From Spongiibacteraceae bacterium (GTDB lineage: Bacteria > Pseudomonadota > Gammaproteobacteria > Pseudomonadales > Dasaniaceae), in contig JANQLG010000012.1 of NCBI GenBank assembly GCA_028280715.1, positions 62,211 to 126,210 of the forward strand: a stretch of DNA of 64,000 bases, read 5' to 3'. Positions 27,773 to 34,224 of this stretch are shown here, one piece after another (within the stretch, counting starts at the first letter, position 1; every line of letters begins with the position of its first letter). The translations under genes and the position numbers were made by a program. Under the pieces are notes generated by a model. That model did not search any database and was not told where the DNA came from. It saw nothing but the letters and a program-made list of their open reading frames with translations.

Positions 27773-28336
27773 TTAAGCAGCAAGCCAACATCTTTGCCCA
27801 CTAAAACGGGCTTTTAAGTATTCCATCTGATCACCACGAATCTGGCGATTATCCAGATACATAAATTCAAAAATATTCGGCGCAAAAGGAATGGCTAATA
27901 ATTCCATACCTGCTTGTTCTGGAGTACGACCACCTTTATGGTGATTGCACCGTTCACATGCAGCGACAACATTGGTCCAACAATCCTTACCACCTTGTAC
28001 ACGTGGCACAATGTGATCACGCGTTAACTGCCTGTTATCGAATTCCATTCCACAATACATACAACGTTGACCATCACGCCGAAACAACATCCTGTTAGTT
28101 AGCAGTGGTTCGAAGTTTTGTTTTCCAACATCACCACTGCAGGCAATGATCGGAGCTAGTTGCAAACTTGACTGCAAGCCTTCGCGGTTTACTCCACCAA
28201 AGATCCATAATGACTCAGAACCAAGACTCCAAATCACTTGCTCTTTTACATACATAGTGGCCGCTTCTTGACGGGTTACCCAAGCTTGAGGAACCCCTGA
28301 CTTATTCAATTTCAAAATGCGAGTTTGCTCTTTCAT
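27773..28336 (-). CDS. HNH endonuclease
   Basis: CMYCG...TRDHIVPRVQGGKDCWTNVVAACERCNHHKG (HNH/zinc-finger core). AGGTAGGAG RBS. It sits between tRNA genes. Confidence 0.8.
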   Translation of the reverse strand: MKEQTRILKLNKSGVPQAWVTRQEAATMYVKEQVIWSLGSESLWIFGGVNREGLQSSLQLAPIIACSGDVGKQNFEPLLTNRMLFRRDGQRCMYCGMEFDNRQLTRDHIVPRVQGGKDCWTNVVAACERCNHHKGGRTPEQAGMELLAIPFAPNIFEFMYLDNRQIRGDQMEYLKARFSGQRCWLAA

Positions 28337-28413
28337 ACTCCTACCTCTACTTCATCACTTTCACTCTCACAAATAAAGATGCACTTCCCCTGTGCGACTT
28401 ATCATCCGTAAGC

Positions 28414-28492
28414 TGGTACCCAAGGTGAGAGTCGAACTCACAAAATCAACAGATTCTAAATCTGCACGCTTTGCCAATTTGCGTACCTGGGT
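28414..28492 (-). tRNA. tRNA with UAG anticodon (Leu-decoding) but no long variable arm; non-canonical
   Basis: Acceptor ACCCAGG/CUUGGGU (one G.U), D arm CGCA-AAUUGGCAA-AGCG, anticodon arm GCAGA-UUUAGAA-UCUGU, 7-nt variable region UGAUUUU, T arm GUGAG-UUCGACU-CUCAC, A73, encoded CCA. Confidence 0.6.
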
Positions 28493-28539
28493 AAATTTTG
28501 TGTGCACACATCCCTTGTGCTTGTCTTTCATCCTTAAAC

Positions 28540-28614
28540 TGGTTGGGGCAATGGGAATCGAACCCACCTCCGCCGGATTAAAAGTCCGGTGCACAACCGC
28601 TATGCCATACCCCA
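28540..28614 (-). tRNA. tRNA-Lys (UUU)
   Basis: Acceptor UGGGGUA/UGCCCCA, D arm GCAU-AGCGGUU-GUGC, anticodon arm CCGGA-CUUUUAA-UCCGG, variable CGGAG, T arm GUGGG-UUCGAUU-CCCAU, A73, encoded CCA. 75 nt. Confidence 0.85.
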
Positions 28615-28630
28615 TCTTTCGAAAATAAAT

Positions 28631-28708
28631 TGGTCAGAGTGGTAGGACTCGAACCTACGACCCCCTCCATCCAAAGGAGGTGCGCTAACCAGACTGCGCT
28701 ACACTCTG
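28631..28708 (-). tRNA. tRNA-Pro (UGG)
   Basis: Acceptor CAGAGUG/CACUCUG (C1-G72), D arm GCGC-AGUCUGGUUA-GCGC, anticodon arm CCUCC-UUUGGAU-GGAGG, variable GGGUC, T arm GUAGG-UUCGAGU-CCUAC, A73, encoded CCA. 78 nt. Confidence 0.9.
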
Positions 28709-28723
28709 AAAATCTTTTTACTA

Positions 28724-28798
28724 TGGAGTGCGCAACTGGAATCGAACCAGTGAAAACGGAAGTTGCAGTTCCGCGCATTACCTCTCTGCCACACGCAC
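28724..28798 (-). tRNA. tRNA-Cys (GCA)
   Basis: Acceptor GUGCGUG/UGCGCAC (two wobble pairs), D arm GCAG-AGAGGUA-AUGC, anticodon arm CGGAA-CUGCAAC-UUCCG, variable UUUUC, T arm ACUGG-UUCGAUU-CCAGU, U73, encoded CCA. 75 nt. Confidence 0.85.
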
Positions 28799-28817
28799 TT
28801 TTTGCTCATTGTAAAAG

Positions 28818-28891
28818 TGGCTACGGTGTCCGGACTCGAACCGGAATCCTCGGAGTCAAAGTCCAATGCGTTACCATTTCGCCACACCGCA
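28818..28891 (-). tRNA. tRNA-Gln (UUG)
   Basis: Acceptor UGCGGUG/CACCGUA (U1-A72), D arm GCGA-AAUGGUA-ACGC, anticodon arm UUGGA-CUUUGAC-UCCGA, variable GGAU, T arm UCCGG-UUCGAGU-CCGGA, G73, encoded CCA. 74 nt. Confidence 0.85.
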
Positions 28892-28898
28892 AAAAATT

Positions 28899-28972
28899 TG
28901 GGGTGATGCCGGGAATTGAACCCTGGTCTCCTGGTCCACAGCCAGGCGCTCTACCACTGAGCTAACATCACC
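28899..28972 (-). tRNA. tRNA-His (GUG), one nucleotide short on the 3' side
   Basis: 5' GGUGAUGU-UA, D arm GCUC-AGUGGUA-GAGC, anticodon arm CCUGG-CUGUGGA-CCAGG, T arm CAGGG-UUCAAUU-CCCGG (A.G mismatch), 3' CAUCACC-CCA. The 5' side has the extra G typical of bacterial tRNA-His. Only 15 nt rather than 16 follow the T loop. Confidence 0.65.
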
Positions 28973-28978
28973 ACAATT

Positions 28979-29064
28979 TGGTGGGGAGGGAGTCGAACCC
29001 CCAAAGCTTTCGCGACGCGTTTACAGCGCGCTAGAGTTGCCACATCTCTTCTGTGCCTCCCCGC
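28979..29064 (-). tRNA. tRNA-Tyr(GUA)-like gene with aberrant acceptor/T-arm geometry (non-canonical or pseudo-tRNA)
   Basis: D arm AGAG-AUGUGGCAA-CUCU, anticodon arm GCGCG-CUGUAAA-CGCGU, 12-nt variable region containing GC-GAAA-GC, GGGGG-UUCGACU-CCCUC, end ...CCCCACCA. GGGGAGG can pair with CCUCCCC, but that uses nucleotides needed for the T stem. The gene is 4 nt short on the 3' side and has 4 nt extra on the 5' side. Confidence 0.4.
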
Positions 29065-29068
29065 TATT

Positions 29069-29143
29069 TGGCTGGCCTGGTAGGGGTCGAACCTACGATT
29101 CTCCGGTTAACAGCCGGACGCTTTACCACTCAGCTACAGACCA
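29069..29143 (-). tRNA. tRNA-Asn (GUU)
   Basis: Acceptor UGGUCUG/CAGGCCA (U1-A72, one U.G), D arm GCUG-AGUGGUA-AAGC, anticodon arm UCCGG-CUGUUAA-CCGGA, variable GAAUC, T arm GUAGG-UUCGACC-CCUAC, G73, encoded CCA. 75 nt. Confidence 0.85.
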
Positions 29144-29235
29144 ACAATTTTTAAGCGACCACATTGTTAAAAAACAGCTACCGTGTTGGCGGGTAGCGCA
29201 CCATGTCATTCAAAAAAATTCTACCGTAAAAAAAC

Positions 29236-29270
29236 AAAACCCCGGCTGGGTTCACCAACCGGGGTTTTTG
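29236..29270. terminator. Bidirectional rho-independent terminator between rtcA and the tRNA array
   Basis: AAAACCCCGGCTGG-GTTCA-CCAACCGGGGTTTTT, with an A-run before and a T-run after. Confidence 0.7.
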
Positions 29271-29510
29271 ATTACAAACTCCACTCCGGTTGGCACTAGC
29301 CTCCCGGAATTTCCAAAAGACTAGATTTTCGTTTTTTCACCTACAGACATCACTAGGTGACTTACATTTTTATTAGGCAGACTTTGCCCCTGCTTGCGAC
29401 ACTGCAAACATAAAAACCTTTCATTTATTGACAAATCTTTTGTCGTTTTCCTAAATAAATGGCATATCAAATTAACGATTACCTCTACGCAAAAATTTAC
29501 AGACATAAAA

Positions 29511-29859: not shown

Positions 29860-30885
29860 CTAAACACAAACCTCCCATACACCTTTTTCAATTTCACTCA
29901 ATTGAATATCAATATTCATTAACTGACTTATAATACTAATGTTAGTTAACAGGTGTTGACTTGGTTTTAGCGTTCGAAAAATACCACCCACACCCAATAC
30001 CATTGGCAACAACAACTGATCTGCCAGATATTCTCCTACACTAACATCAACTTTAAGGTAGCGTTTTACTTCTCGAATCGCCTTTTTTGCCACTCGCTCA
30101 GCACTAACACCATGCTCACCTACAACTTCTACCACTTCACTGACGTTTTCACTACACAAACGCAGTGAGAGAATATTGCCAGGACCTTGAGAACGTACAA
30201 GCTGTTGCTTAAGTGTCGACGCTGGCCACAACCCAATACGCCTAACTTGATCAAGTTCTCGTTCAGTAATATGCTCTGGTAAACACGCCGAAGTCGCAAC
30301 GGCTAAACGTGAAACTTCACGGCCACGTTCAACCAAATTTAGCCTTGTGGTTTTCTGCACTGGATAAATTCTTACACGCCAGGCACCACCGCCAGCAGGA
30401 TAAAAACCATAACGTTGTAACTCGACATCAGCCCGATAGCCCATTTGTGCAATAGCTGGCAAAAAACACTCAGCAATAAAATCAAAGCTAGGCGCAAATC
30501 CGTTATGTGTGCCACCTTCGAGATAAATTTCACTCACCTCTTTAGCGAATAACAGTGGCATATATACTGTTTGGAAAACCAAACTGGTACTGCCAGCTGA
30601 ACCCACTGAGAATCGGTATTCTCCAGCTTTAATCATCCCTGGCCTAAAAGTAACTTCCCTAGAACCCAATTCATCACCGGTTATTTCTGCATCGCAAATC
30701 ATTTGCGCAGCTCGTAGGCAAGTTAAGTGCTGCCGCAGCAAACCAGGCTTGGAACGACCTGCACGAATATTTTGTATTCGCACCGATTTTCCTAAACACA
30801 TTGCCAGGGTCAATGACGTTCGAAATATCTGTCCGCCACCCTCTCCTAATGAACCATCTATTACAATCACACTATTTTTCCTCAT
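29860..30885 (-). CDS. rtcA: RNA 3'-terminal phosphate cyclase
   Basis: Close to E. coli RtcA (IDGSLGEGGGQIFRTSL, RAGRSKPGLLRQHL, FYPAGGG, EYLADQLLLPM). The ATG at 30885 matches the E. coli N-terminus. The ORF-track extension to 30936 runs into the tRNA-like element. Confidence 0.9.
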   Translation of the reverse strand: MRKNSVIVIDGSLGEGGGQIFRTSLTLAMCLGKSVRIQNIRAGRSKPGLLRQHLTCLRAAQMICDAEITGDELGSREVTFRPGMIKAGEYRFSVGSAGSTSLVFQTVYMPLLFAKEVSEIYLEGGTHNGFAPSFDFIAECFLPAIAQMGYRADVELQRYGFYPAGGGAWRVRIYPVQKTTRLNLVERGREVSRLAVATSACLPEHITERELDQVRRIGLWPASTLKQQLVRSQGPGNILSLRLCSENVSEVVEVVGEHGVSAERVAKKAIREVKRYLKVDVSVGEYLADQLLLPMVLGVGGIFRTLKPSQHLLTNISIISQLMNIDIQLSEIEKGVWEVCV

Positions 30886-30892
30886 GTTTATT

Positions 30893-31049
30893 TGGTGGAC
30901 GTGACGGGATTCGAACCCGCGTATAACAACAACCAAGGCATTACTCTTGGTCAGTCATAGACTTGGAAACGCGCGCCAGCTGACACCCGCATTAGAGCAT
31001 CGAGCCTGCATCCTCAACCGTACATCTATCACTGATTACGTTGCCACCA
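30893..31049 (-). ncRNA. CCA-terminated tRNA-like element between rtcB and rtcA (Y-RNA/YrlA-like candidate or degenerate tRNA)
   Basis: Minus strand ends GCGGG-UUCGAAU-CCCGU-CACGUCC-A-CCA, 7 nt before the rtcA ATG. The 3' ACGU-CCACCA can pair with UGGUGG-CA-ACGU at 31038..31049. An internal hairpin ACCAAG-AGUAAUGC-CUUGGU is present. No standard cloverleaf could be closed by eye. Confidence 0.4.
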
Positions 31050-31130
31050 GTTTTACCCGGCTACCTTCATGCTAATCATTTTAGGTAGTGACACTCCCTA
31101 CGCATCAGCACACCCTATAATCTCAAACAA

Positions 31131-31153
31131 ATAGTGCCGTCCCTTGGCACTAT
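31131..31153. other. 8-bp hairpin immediately downstream of rtcB (terminator/processing-site candidate)
   Basis: ATAGTGCC-GTCCCTT-GGCACTAT. On the minus strand it is followed by TTGTTTG. Confidence 0.4.
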
Positions 31154-31177
31154 CCCTTGGTACAATGAAACATCCCT

Positions 31178-32404
31178 TTACCCTTTTACACACACCACTT
31201 GTTTTAAGGTGTACACGATTTCCACTAAATCCTGTTGCGCCTCCATCACTTTATCGATGGGCTTGTACGCAGCCGGTGTTTCATCAATCACACCTTTGTC
31301 TTTTCGGCACTCAACATCCGCTGTTGCCTGAAGGTGCTCTTCCAAAGACACCATTTTTTTTGCTTTAGTGCGCGACATCACGCGACCTGCACCATGGCTA
31401 CAACTACAGAAGCTTTCTTCGTTGCCAAGTCCGCGAACAATGTAAGACCGAGCTCCCATGCTTCCGGGGATAATACCCATTTCACCTTCGCGAGCGCGTA
31501 CCGCACCTTTGCGTGTAACCAACACATCTTTTCCATAGTGGTGCTCGCGAGACACATAATTATGATGACAGTTCACCGCTTCCATCCGCGCCTCAAAGAT
31601 CATCCCTAATTCTTCGGTAACCGCTGCGATAACACGAGCCATCATTACTTCTCGGTTAATACGTGCAAAATTTTGTGCCCATTCCACCGCTTCGACATAC
31701 TCATCAAAATGTTCAGTACCTTCTGGCAAGTAAGACAGGTCACTATCAGGCAAATGAATATGCCAACGCTCCATATCTTTCTTAGCCACTTCAATAAAGT
31801 GCGTACCAATGCAGTTACCAACACCACGTGAGCCGCTATGCAACATAAACCATACTCGACCATACTCATCCAAACACACTTCGATAAAGTGGTTGCCAGT
31901 ACCTAAAGTACCCAGATGGTTAATGTTGTTGGTATTTTTCAATACCGGATGTTTATCTACTAACACATCAAATTGTGCTGACAGCGGCATCCAGGCTTTC
32001 ATCACATCATCAGGGACATTACACCACGCACCTTTATCCCGCTTACCGCGCAAACGCCTTGAACGACCATGCGGTACTGCTTTTTCAATCGCATCACGAA
32101 TACCGGCCAAGCTATCAGGCAACTGCTCCGCGGTCAGGCTGGTTCGCACCGCCATCATCCCGCAGCCGATATCTACTCCAACGGCTGCAGGAATCACCGC
32201 ACCTAATGTAGGAACGACGCTGCCAATTGTTGCACCCTTGCCAAGGTGGACATCCGGCATTGCCGCCACCCATTGATGAATAAAGGGCATTCGCGAAATA
32301 TTCTTTAATTGCTCTTTAGCATCTTCTTCAAAAGGAACGCCTCGGGTCCAAGTTTTGATAGGTACACCACCGTCTTGCATTACTTCATAGCGCTCTTGAG
32401 TCAT
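31178..32404 (-). CDS. rtcB: RtcB-family RNA ligase (copy 2, RtcR-controlled)
   Basis: 408 aa with strong similarity to E. coli RtcB. It is divergent from rtcR and has a sigma54 promoter upstream. Confidence 0.92.
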   Translation of the reverse strand: MTQERYEVMQDGGVPIKTWTRGVPFEEDAKEQLKNISRMPFIHQWVAAMPDVHLGKGATIGSVVPTLGAVIPAAVGVDIGCGMMAVRTSLTAEQLPDSLAGIRDAIEKAVPHGRSRRLRGKRDKGAWCNVPDDVMKAWMPLSAQFDVLVDKHPVLKNTNNINHLGTLGTGNHFIEVCLDEYGRVWFMLHSGSRGVGNCIGTHFIEVAKKDMERWHIHLPDSDLSYLPEGTEHFDEYVEAVEWAQNFARINREVMMARVIAAVTEELGMIFEARMEAVNCHHNYVSREHHYGKDVLVTRKGAVRAREGEMGIIPGSMGARSYIVRGLGNEESFCSCSHGAGRVMSRTKAKKMVSLEEHLQATADVECRKDKGVIDETPAAYKPIDKVMEAQQDLVEIVYTLKQVVCVKG

Positions 32405-32470: not shown

Positions 32471-32486
32471 TGCGAAGGCAGTGCCA
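32471..32486 (-). promoter_or_regulatory. Sigma54 (-24/-12) promoter of rtcB
   Basis: The minus strand reads TGGCAC-TGCCT-TCGCA, with GG and GC at consensus spacing, 67 nt upstream of the rtcB ATG. Confidence 0.75.
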
Positions 32487-32631: not shown

Positions 32632-34224
32632 ATGAAAACCGTAGCGATCAGCATTCTAGGTACCACTATGGACCGTCGTGGTAAGGGCGAAAAACGCTGG
32701 GACAAATGGCGCCCCACCATTTCCATGTGCCAACACGATGACCTATTGATTGATCGTCTGGAACTGCTATTCGACAACCACTCGCAGAGCCTGGCTGAGC
32801 AAGTCAAAGAGGATATCGCCCGCGTCTCTCCAGAAACCGAAGTGATTTATCACCACGTCAACTTTCATGACCCCTGGGATTTTGAAACGGTCTATGGCGA
32901 ATTGCTCGACTTTGCACGAGGCTATTCTTTTAAACCAAGTAAAGAGCGCTACCTAACACACATCACAACCGGCACCCACGTTGCTCAAATCTGCTTGTAT
33001 CTGTTGACCGAAGCTGGCTACCTGCCAGGCCAATTAATCCAAACATCCCCGGCACCTAGAAACAGTAATGTAGCAGGCCAATATCAAATTATTGATCTGG
33101 ACTTATCCAAGTACGATCAAATTGCGTCGCGCTTTAAAAAGGAGCACTTTGAAGGCACCACTTACTTAAAGGGAGGAATAAAAACCAATAACAAAGCCTT
33201 TAACCAAATGATCGAGCAATTGGAGCAGGTATCGATTCGCTCAAGTGAGCCGATTCTTTTAACTGGCCCCACCGGCGCCGGCAAATCACAACTGGCCCAA
33301 CGGATTTATTCACTAAAAAAACAGCGCGGCCTAATCAGCGGTAATTTGGTCGTCGTCAACTGTGCGACCTTAAAAGGTGAGAATGCCATGTCTGCGTTAT
33401 TTGGCCATAAGAAAGGCGCCTTTACCGGTGCAACAACCGATAGAGCAGGCCTGCTTCGCGAAGCCGATGGCGGCATGTTATTTCTGGATGAAATTGGAGA
33501 ACTTGGTACGGACGAGCAAGCCATGCTGCTACGCGCAATAGAAGATAAAAAATTTATGCCATTCGGCGCTGACAAAGAAACCACCAGCAATTTCTTATTA
33601 ATCGCTGGTACTAATCGCGATTTGAGCGGTCAAGCTCAACGGGGAGAATTCCGCGAGGATTTACACGCCCGCATTGATTTGTGGACCTATCGACTACCTT
33701 CACTTTCAGAAAGGATGGAGGACTTCGAACCAAATCTCGATTATGAACTGGAGAATTACTCCACCAAAACCGGTTATCTCATCAGCTTTAACAAAGATGC
33801 CAGAAAAAAATACCTGCAGTTCGCAACATCGACAGAAGCCACATGGTCAGCCAATTTTCGGGACCTCAATGCCAGCATTACACGCATGGCAACCCTGGCC
33901 AATGGCGGTAGGATTACTGTAAGCGTCGTTAATGAAGAAATTGACCGACTGCAACACAAGTGGCAATCGACAAGCAATAAAAGCCACACCAATGACACAA
34001 CATTACTCAAATCCATTCTCGGTGAAAACAAGATTAAGTCACTGGACTTATACGAGCAGATGACACTAGCACCGGTATTAAAAATTTGTCAAAGCGCCAA
34101 CTCTATGGCCGAAGCAGGAAGAATCCTCTTCAATGTGAGCCGGGAGCAGAAAAAATCCAATAACGACTCACATCGGATAAAACAGATCCTGGATAAACAC
34201 CAGATTAAGTTTGGCGACCTATGA
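32632..34224 (+). CDS. rtcR: RtcR, CARF-domain sigma54-dependent transcriptional activator
   Basis: 530 aa. It has an N-terminal CARF-like region, an AAA+ sigma54-interaction core (LLTGPTGAGKSQLA, GAFTGA, LFLDEIGEL) and a C-terminal HTH. It is divergent from rtcB as in E. coli. Confidence 0.9.
   Translation: MKTVAISILGTTMDRRGKGEKRWDKWRPTISMCQHDDLLIDRLELLFDNHSQSLAEQVKEDIARVSPETEVIYHHVNFHDPWDFETVYGELLDFARGYSFKPSKERYLTHITTGTHVAQICLYLLTEAGYLPGQLIQTSPAPRNSNVAGQYQIIDLDLSKYDQIASRFKKEHFEGTTYLKGGIKTNNKAFNQMIEQLEQVSIRSSEPILLTGPTGAGKSQLAQRIYSLKKQRGLISGNLVVVNCATLKGENAMSALFGHKKGAFTGATTDRAGLLREADGGMLFLDEIGELGTDEQAMLLRAIEDKKFMPFGADKETTSNFLLIAGTNRDLSGQAQRGEFREDLHARIDLWTYRLPSLSERMEDFEPNLDYELENYSTKTGYLISFNKDARKKYLQFATSTEATWSANFRDLNASITRMATLANGGRITVSVVNEEIDRLQHKWQSTSNKSHTNDTTLLKSILGENKIKSLDLYEQMTLAPVLKICQSANSMAEAGRILFNVSREQKKSNNDSHRIKQILDKHQIKFGDL

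What the first reader, a model, noticed from the sequence alone, without database searches (positions are those of the whole stretch)
27773..28336. HNH endonuclease gene embedded inside the tRNA set
Seen: a 187-aa HNH protein with its own RBS lies between the 8-gene array and tRNA(CAU), on the same strand. Established: HNH and GIY-YIG homing endonucleases are typical passengers of phage tRNA gene clusters (for example T4 and T5). Inference: it may mark the array as a mobile or phage-derived cassette. Alternatively it could be a functional nuclease of the repair system. Its ~100-aa N-terminal domain is unassigned.
Basis: partly seen in the sequence, partly recalled or inferred. Interest (0 to 1): 0.55.

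Follow-up and report, generated by a model that had tools for sequence, protein, structure and literature searches.

The report
tRNA-array companion HNH nuclease gene
The gene is real and encodes a two-domain HNH nuclease of the family that travels with clustered tRNA genes in phages, plasmids and cyanobacteria; here it sits with its tRNA cluster inside a bacterial RNA-repair gene island, and what the nuclease does is still unproven.

Summary
Observation confirmed. Window 27773-28336 (-) is an intact 187-aa ORF with a Shine-Dalgarno site and an HNH_5 domain. It lies on the same strand between a tRNA array and a tRNA(CAU). The array has 7 canonical tRNAs plus one non-canonical Tyr-like element.

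The unassigned N-terminus (residues 1-66) folds like the PLMP domain of IsrB/IscB. The HNH core is closest to Cas9/IscB HNH. The protein therefore has the published "IshB" layout (PLMP + HNH, ~180 aa).

It is homologous along its length to Anabaena all8564, the HNH gene conserved beside long tRNA arrays. Relatives sit directly 3' of 19-37-gene arrays on four betaproteobacterial megaplasmids. They lie within 500 bp of tRNAs in 55 of 80 viral contigs.

Its closest relatives (65-76% identity) are gammaproteobacterial. Some occupy the same slot of RtcR/RtcBA-array-HNH-tRNA-SPFH-CCA-RlaP islands. Others stand alone in core chromosome with no tRNA nearby.

Across Rtc/SPFH islands, array and HNH are present or absent together. 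The HNH has diverged at the pace of its neighbours under purifying selection.

Best reading: an array-linked DNA endonuclease that promotes inheritance and remodelling of the array, not a recent selfish insert or an Rtc repair enzyme. A tRNA-directed role is not excluded.

The parts
27773..28336 (-). HNH endonuclease CDS, 187 aa, ATG start, intact active site
28139..28336 (-). N-terminal PLMP-like domain (residues 1-66; strand-strand-helix-four strands; conserved G14-x-P16, W19, A25)
27899..28096 (-). HNH core with CxxC...CxxC zinc site (residues 81-146), Cas9/IscB type
27776..27898 (-). C-terminal helical extension (residues 147-187; P150, P153, E157, D169-Q-M, L174 conserved in proteobacterial and phage members; absent from all8564)
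28344..28348 (-). Shine-Dalgarno AGAGG, 7 nt before the ATG
   Evidence: read from the sequence
28414..29143 (-). tRNA array upstream of the HNH: Asn(GUU), [Tyr-like], His(GUG), Gln(UUG), Cys(GCA), Pro(UGG), Lys(UUU), Leu(UAG)
28975..29062 (-). non-canonical tRNA-like element (anticodon-loop GUA, long variable arm, CCA encoded), not called by ARAGORN or Rfam
29228..29332 (-). conserved hairpin element plus strong bidirectional intrinsic terminator at the left end of the array/HNH cassette. Also present in L003, L081-83, L085 and L178; absent from stand-alone HNH loci.
27571..27646 (-). resident tRNA (CAU here) immediately downstream of the HNH. It is orthologous across islands but has a different anticodon in different lineages.
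27647..27756 (-). conserved structured ~100-nt RNA element between the HNH stop and that tRNA. It is present in islands with and without the HNH, so it belongs to the tRNA-SPFH unit.
   Evidence: 29 predicted pairs, 16 with compensatory changes
29860..32404 (-). rtcB (31178-32404) and rtcA (29860-30936; probable true start near 30885), with a sigma-54-like site at 32472-32486
32632..34224 (+). rtcR, the divergent sigma-54 activator
   Evidence: NF038308, E 1e-233
20351..27206 (-). downstream island genes: SPFH/Band_7 (26061-27206), CCA-adding enzyme (24766-26019), two RlaP nucleotidyltransferases (23834-24739, 23070-23837), orf314, and a second RtcB paralogue (20351-21562)

Best explanation
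The ORF encodes a PLMP-like + Cas9/IscB-type HNH nuclease. It belongs to the family typified by Anabaena all8564, which accompanies tRNA gene arrays on phages, megaplasmids and genomic islands. In this window it is the 3'-terminal gene of a cassette (conserved hairpin/terminator, tRNA array, HNH). The cassette sits between rtcA and a resident tRNA-SPFH unit of an RtcR-controlled RNA-repair island. It is probably transcribed with the tRNAs. Shown: the gene, its domains, its family, the statistical linkage to arrays, the cassette-like presence/absence, and long-term purifying selection. Inferred: the protein is a metal-dependent DNA nicking or cutting enzyme. Breaks at or near tRNA genes would stimulate recombination. 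That recombination would keep the nuclease and the array together, copy them into nuclease-free alleles, and drive gain, loss or amplification of tRNA genes. This is the role shown experimentally for the unrelated GIY-YIG enzyme SegB in T-even tRNA regions. It would then be a domesticated, array-serving endonuclease, not an Rtc repair enzyme and not a recent selfish invader.
Against: No activity or target was tested. At least 595 gammaproteobacterial species-representative genomes carry an orthologue. In the 80 loci examined it sits mostly in housekeeping neighbourhoods (pntAB, priA, xni, bcp by my reading of the sequences) with no tRNA nearby. That pattern implies a cellular function that does not need an array. 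[quoted passage not shown] That regulon mirrors this island and suggests a physiological role in translational stress. The PLMP domain contacts RNA hairpins in IsrB/IscB (PMC9581776, PMC10734217). An HNH nuclease can cleave tRNA, as PtuB of Septu and Retron-Eco7 does (PMC13096335, PMC12673091). No HNH-less allele of an otherwise identical array was found that could define a homing site.
Confidence: 0.5

Rival explanations
1. The nuclease is a working part of a translational-stress or tRNA-damage response and acts on RNA. Its PLMP/IF3-N-like domain would bind tRNA or tRNA-like RNA. The HNH would process tightly packed array transcripts or clear damaged tRNAs, alongside RtcB, the CCA enzyme and RlaP.
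For: The gene sits inside an RtcR/RtcBA-SPFH-CCA-RlaP island. [quoted passage not shown] It is tightly packed between tRNAs on the same strand, so it is expressed only with the array. The N-terminal fold is PLMP-like, and PLMP binds RNA hairpins in IsrB (PMC9581776). Conserved stand-alone orthologues argue for a cellular function. HNH chemistry (3'-OH/5'-P) is the same as that of RNase P and RNase Z products (established knowledge). PtuB is an HNH enzyme that cleaves tRNA-Tyr (PMC13096335).
Against: Array-linked copies in phages and plasmids have no repair genes nearby. Two strong terminators lie between rtcA and the array. HNH products are not RtcB substrates, since RtcB needs 3'-P or 2',3'-cyclic-P plus 5'-OH (established knowledge). 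The closest solved homologues cut DNA. Most stand-alone orthologues are not next to any RNA-metabolism gene.
Confidence: 0.27
2. It is a classical free-standing homing endonuclease: a purely selfish, recently inserted passenger that marks a phage-derived array.
For: Nuclease genes are common in phage tRNA regions (PMC13096335, PMC5966550). 471 viral contigs encode relatives. It is a free-standing ORF between tRNA genes.
Against: The best phage identity is 51%, against 65-76% to gammaproteobacterial chromosomal genes. GC content equals that of the neighbours. dN is 0.18-0.22, the same as SPFH and CCA, and dN/dS is at most about 0.1 where dS is not saturated. The gene holds the same position in islands whose other proteins are 64-87% identical. 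Orthologues are found in at least 595 species-representative genomes.
Confidence: 0.1
3. It is an OMEGA-type (IshB-like) RNA-guided nuclease that uses a nearby structured RNA, a tRNA-like RNA or another transcript as guide.
For: It has the PLMP + HNH layout and the ~180-aa size of IshB (PMC10734217, PMC11610941). The HNH core is closest to IscB and Cas9d. Conserved structured RNAs lie on both sides of the cassette.
Against: No IS200/605 TnpA gene and no omega/HEARO RNA hit lie near the gene in the window or in stand-alone loci. The flanking RNA elements also occur without the HNH or are missing from stand-alone HNH loci. The protein has no RuvC, bridge-helix or TAM-interaction parts to hold a guide-target duplex.
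Confidence: 0.08

Closest known systems
all8564 of Anabaena/Nostoc sp. PCC 7120 (HNH gene beside the trn long tRNA array; PMC8421152, PMC10272220)
   Same: It has the same two-domain layout and is homologous over residues 3-153 (hhalign probability 99.6%; tblastn 34%). It lies next to a tRNA array on the same strand. Its regulon partners (rtcB, slipin) are physical neighbours of the HNH here.
   Different: Identity is only 31-34%. all8564 lies 5' of the array with its own promoter, whereas this gene lies 3' and inside the array. all8564 lacks the C-terminal DQMEYL helical extension. It is plasmid-borne and TrcR-repressed, whereas this gene is chromosomal-type and sits in an RtcR island.
IshB (PLMP + HNH, ~180 aa) of the OMEGA/IscB-IsrB group (Altae-Tran 2021, as summarised in PMC10734217 and PMC11610941)
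   Same: Size, domain order and a Cas9/IscB-type HNH core. The N-terminal fold is PLMP-like.
SegB, the GIY-YIG homing endonuclease of the T4/T6 tRNA region (PMC13096335)
   Same: It is a free-standing nuclease gene embedded among tRNA genes. It shows a strong statistical association with tRNAs. It supplies the proposed working model: breaks, then recombination, then co-conversion or amplification of tRNA genes.
   Different: The fold is unrelated (GIY-YIG, not HNH). SegB is phage-only. Its activity is demonstrated, whereas activity here is only inferred.
Gme HNH nicking endonuclease (PDB 4h9d) and phage packaging-type HNH proteins
   Same: The HNH core is 39% identical over about 61-67 residues. 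A distant PLMP-HNH relative in Gordonia phages lies between the terminase and portal genes.
   Different: These proteins are single-domain and have no PLMP-like domain. They have no tRNA context.
PtuB, the HNH nuclease of Septu and Retron-Eco7
   Different: PtuB works with the PtuA ATPase, and no such partner is present here. The similarity is at core level only. PtuB has no PLMP domain.

Membership tests
HNH (beta-beta-alpha-Me) nuclease superfamily | An HNH motif with a catalytic His, Asn/His metal ligands and, in this subgroup, two CxxC zinc pairs | tested here: met
tRNA-array-associated HNH (all8564 family) | Full-length homology to all8564, including the N-terminal domain | tested here: met
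   hhalign probability 99.6%, E 1.4e-24, residues 3-153
tRNA-array-associated HNH (all8564 family) | The gene lies adjacent to or inside a tRNA gene array on the same strand | tested here: met
   for the window. for relatives.
tRNA-array-associated HNH (all8564 family) | Co-induction with the array under translational stress | not testable with these tools
   This needs expression data. The absence of a promoter or terminator between array and ORF is compatible with it.
Free-standing homing endonuclease | Sporadic presence or absence among close relatives and signs of recent insertion | tested here: not met
   The gene holds the same slot in islands whose proteins are 64-87% identical, and its dN equals that of its neighbours. 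Its GC content is not deviant. No near-identical arrays were available for comparison.
Free-standing homing endonuclease | Site-specific cleavage of the endonuclease-free allele | not testable with these tools
   This needs biochemistry. Array plus HNH are present or absent as a unit in Rtc/SPFH islands, which is compatible with homing but is not proof.
IshB / OMEGA | An N-terminal PLMP domain followed by an IscB-type HNH, about 180 aa | tested here: inconclusive
IshB / OMEGA | Residence in an IS200/605-type element with an associated omega RNA | tested here: not met
   No TnpA gene lies next to the gene in the window or in the stand-alone loci, and Rfam finds no HEARO/omega RNA. One Y1 transposase in L083 lies beyond the CCA gene.
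Rtc RNA-repair system component | Consistent co-occurrence with rtcB/rtcA across the family | tested here: not met
   Only 2 of 80 species-representative loci have Rtc or SPFH neighbours. No viral or plasmid array-linked copy has them.
Septu / retron PtuB defence nuclease | A full-length match to PtuB and a partner PtuA ATPase | tested here: not met
   PADLOC hits cover only residues 82-144. There is no PtuA-like neighbour.

The most novel reading that the evidence does not exclude
The PLMP-HNH protein is not a selfish enzyme but a tRNA-recognising nuclease. Its IF3-N/PLMP-like domain would bind tRNA or tRNA-like RNA. The HNH would then either cut DNA in a tRNA-dependent way or cleave and clear tRNAs. 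It would be an effector of a conserved translational-stress module made of a spare tRNA array, the HNH, RtcB and a slipin/SPFH protein. That module exists as the TrcR regulon in Anabaena and is fused into one island here. The family would also be a free-living relative of the PLMP + HNH parts of IscB.
Probability: 0.2. Interest if true: 0.8.

Novelty: new member of a known kind. Interest (0 to 1): 0.5.

Why it matters
tRNA arrays are increasingly seen as spare or decoy tRNA sets against tRNA-cutting toxins and defence systems. The one protein gene that travels with them most faithfully has never been characterised. This locus adds three points:
- The companion nuclease has the PLMP + HNH layout of the smallest IscB/Cas9 relatives.
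- It and its array behave as one insertable unit.
- In marine Gammaproteobacteria that unit sits inside an RtcR/RtcBA-SPFH-CCA-RlaP island. This reproduces in one place the set of genes that Anabaena co-regulates under translational stress.

That gives clear, testable alternatives (array-remodelling DNA nuclease or tRNA-directed enzyme) and several genetic systems in which to test them. The gene itself is an ordinary member of the family.

Tried and rejected
- Sequence-level assignment of the N-domain failed. A profile of 10 N-termini hit nothing meaningful in PDB sequences or in Pfam at E up to 10.
- The first AF2 model, from 20 sequences, was poor outside the N-domain (pLDDT 60). Its Foldseek search gave only sub-threshold IsrB/IscB hints. 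A 41-sequence alignment fixed this.
- No consistent SOS control or shared upstream motif was found for stand-alone orthologues. LexA-like boxes occur in 9/80 loci against about 5% of control windows, and they are clade-specific.
- The conserved CTGGCAC block after the HNH stop is not a sigma-54 promoter. By my reading of the alignment the GG-GC spacing is wrong. It is part of a structured RNA.
- The tRNA downstream of the HNH in phage arrays is not orthologous to the island's resident tRNA.
- Co-divergence of the HNH with its flanking tRNAs in 13 viral arrays gave no correlation (rho 0.10). This is uninformative.
- Defence-system membership was rejected: PADLOC gives only core-level hits.
- No repair genes lie near viral or plasmid copies.
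- The source contig of the window protein could not be retrieved.
- Altae-Tran 2021 and Burroughs & Aravind 2016 are not held. The IshB definition therefore comes from secondary papers.
- An alignment that included the cyanobacterial and Gordonia-phage members was too diverse for a locus scan.

Full report
THE OBSERVATION

Window 27773-28336 (minus strand) is an ATG-started ORF of 187 aa. AGAGG lies 7 nt upstream of the start, read from the sequence. Pfam finds HNH_5 (E 1.7e-17) and HNH (E 4.9e-13) over residues 92-146.

The ORF lies on the same strand as its flanking tRNA genes. tRNA-Leu(UAG) ends 77 bp upstream. A tRNA with anticodon CAU starts 126 bp downstream.

ARAGORN and Rfam agree on seven canonical tRNAs upstream: Asn, His, Gln, Cys, Pro, Lys and Leu. 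It reaches no tRNA threshold.

No promoter-like site or strong terminator separates the array from the ORF.

SURROUNDINGS

The gene is embedded in a long minus-strand RNA-repair island:
- rtcR lies upstream and is divergent (NF038308, E 1e-233).
- rtcB has a sigma-54-like site upstream. rtcA follows it.
- An AT-rich spacer with two strong intrinsic terminators comes next.
- The tRNA array, the HNH gene and the tRNA(CAU) follow.
- Then come an SPFH/Band_7 gene, a CCA-adding enzyme, two RlaP nucleotidyltransferases, an unknown ORF and a second RtcB paralogue.

WHAT THE PROTEIN IS

The family is conserved along its whole length, not only in the HNH core. A whole-library profile search found 256 clusters (at 50% identity) with E <= 1e-30.

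With a 41-sequence alignment AlphaFold gave a confident model (pLDDT 88, pTM 0.74). It has three parts:
- an N-terminal domain (residues 1-66) of two strands, a helix and four strands;
- a zinc-bearing HNH core (residues 81-146);
- two C-terminal helices.

hhalign puts the conserved G-x-P...A motif in register with the published DtIsrB PLMP sequence, weakly (E 0.04; sequence from PMC9581776). The PLMP domain is described there as a four-stranded sheet plus helix resembling IF3-N.

I therefore assign the N-domain as PLMP-like at the fold level. PLMP + HNH at about 180 aa is the layout named IshB in the OMEGA literature (PMC10734217, PMC11610941). I could not compare the protein with IshB sequences directly. 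There is no IS200/605 or omega-RNA context here.

WHERE ITS RELATIVES LIVE

There are two very different settings.

Setting 1: tRNA arrays.
- The Anabaena PCC 7120 delta-plasmid protein all8564 is a full-length homologue (hhalign probability 99.6%). It lies just upstream of 24 tRNA genes.
- Published work reports this HNH as conserved next to long arrays in most cyanobacteria and co-induced with the array and rtcB (PMC8421152). It is also a member of the TrcR regulon, together with rtcB and a slipin gene (PMC10272220).
- Mycobacterial arrays also most often carry an HNH gene (PMC5966550). My searches matched those only in the HNH core.
- On four betaproteobacterial megaplasmids the homologue (36-43% identity) starts 14-93 bp after the last of 19-37 tRNA genes.
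- 471 IMG/VR contigs encode relatives. Of the best 80 (41-51% identity), 66 have a tRNA within 5 kb, 53 have at least three, and 55 have one within 500 bp. All are on the same strand, and the gene usually sits inside the array.
- Thirteen diverged arrays keep the gene between tRNA-Met(CAU) and tRNA-Cys.
- Salicola jumbo phage SCTP-2 has it inside its tRNA region.

Setting 2: stand-alone chromosomal genes.
- At least 595 gammaproteobacterial species-representative genomes encode an orthologue.
- In the 80 best loci only 3 have any tRNA within 5 kb.
- The neighbours are housekeeping genes that change with the clade: transhydrogenase, PriA, a 5'-3' exonuclease and peroxiredoxin, by my reading of the sequences.
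- Rfam finds nothing next to the gene.
- Gynuella, Spartinivicinus and a 5.8-Mb genome carry 69-72% identical copies in such settings.

THE WINDOW'S OWN LINEAGE

The nearest relatives (73-76%) sit in the same architecture as the window: RtcR | RtcB-RtcA - spacer - array - HNH - single tRNA - SPFH - CCA - RlaP. This was seen in Porticoccus sp. W117 and in several metagenome contigs.

The tRNA sets differ between these islands, while the HNH and everything downstream keep their places:
- Asn-His-Gln-Lys in one;
- Asn-Gly-Gln-Pro-Lys in another;
- Glu-Lys-Thr-Arg in a third.

I anchored a metagenome scan on the SPFH gene. Among the resulting islands:
- seven have array plus HNH;
- six have neither, and in them rtcA or rtcB is followed directly by the single tRNA, or by SPFH;
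- two have the HNH without an array (L003, L004);
- none has an array without the HNH.

A hand Fisher test gives p about 0.006, but the loci are not independent.

A conserved hairpin plus bidirectional terminator marks the left end of the unit. It is present even where rtcBA is replaced by another gene (L082) or where no tRNAs remain (L003).

In an NJ tree the window's clade nests within the gammaproteobacterial stand-alone genes. Three other islands with the same slot carry an HNH that groups with the megaplasmid type. The tree is only indicative at these distances.

The window gene is not compositionally foreign. Its non-synonymous divergence from the orthologous islands (0.18-0.22) equals that of SPFH and CCA and is below that of RtcA. 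dN/dS is at most about 0.1 where dS is not saturated.

Array-linked copies in phages and plasmids have no Rtc, SPFH, CCA or RlaP genes within 5 kb.

HOW IT MOST LIKELY WORKS

The constant partner of this family outside chromosomes is a tRNA array, not a repair enzyme. The array and the nuclease behave as one unit whose tRNA content is fluid. The closest solved relatives cut or nick DNA.

The best-supported model is a DNA endonuclease that serves the array. Breaks at or near tRNA genes would stimulate recombination. That would co-convert the nuclease and its flanking tRNA genes into empty alleles and drive gain, loss and amplification of tRNA genes.

This is what the unrelated GIY-YIG enzyme SegB was recently shown to do in T6. 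There, amplification of tRNA-Tyr overcomes Septu (PMC13096335). Earlier authors proposed similar roles for array-linked HNH genes (PMC8421152, PMC5966550).

The steps from 'nuclease' onward are inferred. Nothing here tests activity or target.

The model must also accommodate strong, long-term purifying selection and hundreds of stand-alone orthologues. I therefore regard the enzyme as domesticated, not as a classical short-lived homing gene. I put the model at about 0.5.

THE MAIN RIVAL (about 0.27)

The protein may act in the stress response itself, on RNA. Four points favour this:
- The Anabaena regulon (array, all8564, rtcB, slipin) is reproduced here as physical neighbours.
- PLMP contacts RNA hairpins in IsrB/IscB.
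- HNH chemistry gives the same ends as RNase P and RNase Z.
- The HNH enzyme PtuB cleaves tRNA-Tyr (PMC13096335, PMC12673091).

Three points count against it:
- There are no repair genes around phage and plasmid copies.
- Terminators lie between rtcA and the array.
- HNH products are not RtcB substrates.

A purely selfish recent insert (about 0.1) and an RNA-guided OMEGA-like enzyme (about 0.08) are less likely, for the reasons given in their entries.

COMPARISON AND NOVELTY

The gene is a new member of a known kind, the tRNA-array-associated HNH family. It occurs in a new setting, an RtcR-controlled repair island in Gammaproteobacteria. As far as the papers I could read show, three points have not been reported:
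- the fold-level PLMP assignment, which ties the array HNH to IshB/IscB-type proteins;
- the size of the association in viral contigs;
- the all-or-none coupling of array and HNH in Rtc/SPFH islands.

The array here is rich in species that known anticodon nucleases attack (Asn, His, Tyr-like; Lys, Gln). That statement rests on my own knowledge of colicin E5, PrrC and zymocin targets. It fits the idea of a spare-tRNA-plus-repair island. Interest is moderate.

Noticed in passing
window 27571-27756 (-); also L004, L081, L085, L178, L181, L183, L184, L191, L194, L195, L197, L199: The single 'tRNA' just upstream of the SPFH gene is orthologous across Rtc/SPFH islands: the acceptor, D and T arms are conserved. 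Its anticodon differs by lineage (CAU, AUU, AAU, GUU, UGU, UUU, and a second copy with UUA in L194). It is always preceded by a conserved ~100-nt structured element: 29 predicted pairs, 16 with compensatory changes. The element occurs with or without the HNH. It may be a Y-RNA-like or decoy/sensor RNA of the Rtc system and not a decoding tRNA.
   Followed up: partly
window 27490-27570 (-): Directly after that tRNA lies a conserved GUCGUCUGAAAAACGAC hairpin (an anticodon-arm-like 5-bp stem with a 7-nt loop), followed by a T-arm-like GGGGUUCGAGUCCCC. It looks like a truncated tRNA-like piece. The start of it is conserved in L081, L085 and L178.
   Followed up: partly
window 28975-29062 (-): A non-canonical tRNA-like element lies between tRNA-Asn and tRNA-His. 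It has a GGGGAGG/CCUCCCC acceptor stem, a GUA anticodon loop, a variable arm and an encoded CCA. ARAGORN misses it and it stays below Rfam thresholds (tRNA-Sec 19.6 bits, YrlA 20.2 bits).
   Followed up: partly
window 29228-29332 (-); L003 9740-9850, L081 6930-7040, L082 3040-3150, L085 7220-7330, L178 7550-7660: A conserved hairpin element (GUAGUC..UUCGGAA.UUCCGGAA..GGCUAC) followed by a strong bidirectional terminator marks the left end of the array/HNH unit. It persists where rtcBA is replaced (L082) or where no tRNAs remain (L003). It is absent from stand-alone HNH loci. It may be a small RNA or an operator.
   Followed up: partly
window 30893-30988 (-): Rfam gives a weak tmRNA/tRNA-like hit (20 bits, E 1e-4) between rtcB and rtcA. 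The listed TTG start of the RtcA ORF translates a T-arm-like GGUUCGAAUCC as '..RGFESRH..'. The true RtcA start is therefore probably the ATG near 30885, and a tRNA-like element may sit between rtcB and rtcA, as Y RNAs do in Salmonella.
   Followed up: no
window 28414-29143 (-): The array is enriched for tRNAs that known anticodon nucleases attack (Asn, His, Tyr-like; Lys, Gln). Orthologous islands carry other subsets, such as Glu, Lys, Thr and Arg. This suggests a spare or decoy tRNA set coupled to repair. The target lists are from my own knowledge and were not tested.
   Followed up: no
window 20351-24739 (-): The island carries two adjacent RlaP paralogues (23834-24739 and 23070-23837, overlapping by 4 nt), an unassigned 314-aa ORF conserved in other islands (21757-22701), and a second RtcB paralogue (20351-21562).
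   Followed up: partly
L082 792-3002 and L083 8737-9171: In contigs carrying the identical HNH protein, rtcBA is replaced upstream by a gene with DruA and Tnp_DNA_bind domains (L082). An IS200-type Y1 transposase lies after the CCA gene (L083). These are rearrangements at the borders of the unit.
   Followed up: no
L185 1466-2014; L092 5980-6507: There are other arrangements of distant family members. In one metagenome contig an HNH at 37% identity lies directly after the SPFH gene. In Gordonia phages a copy at 30% identity lies between the terminase and portal genes, with no tRNAs.
   Followed up: no
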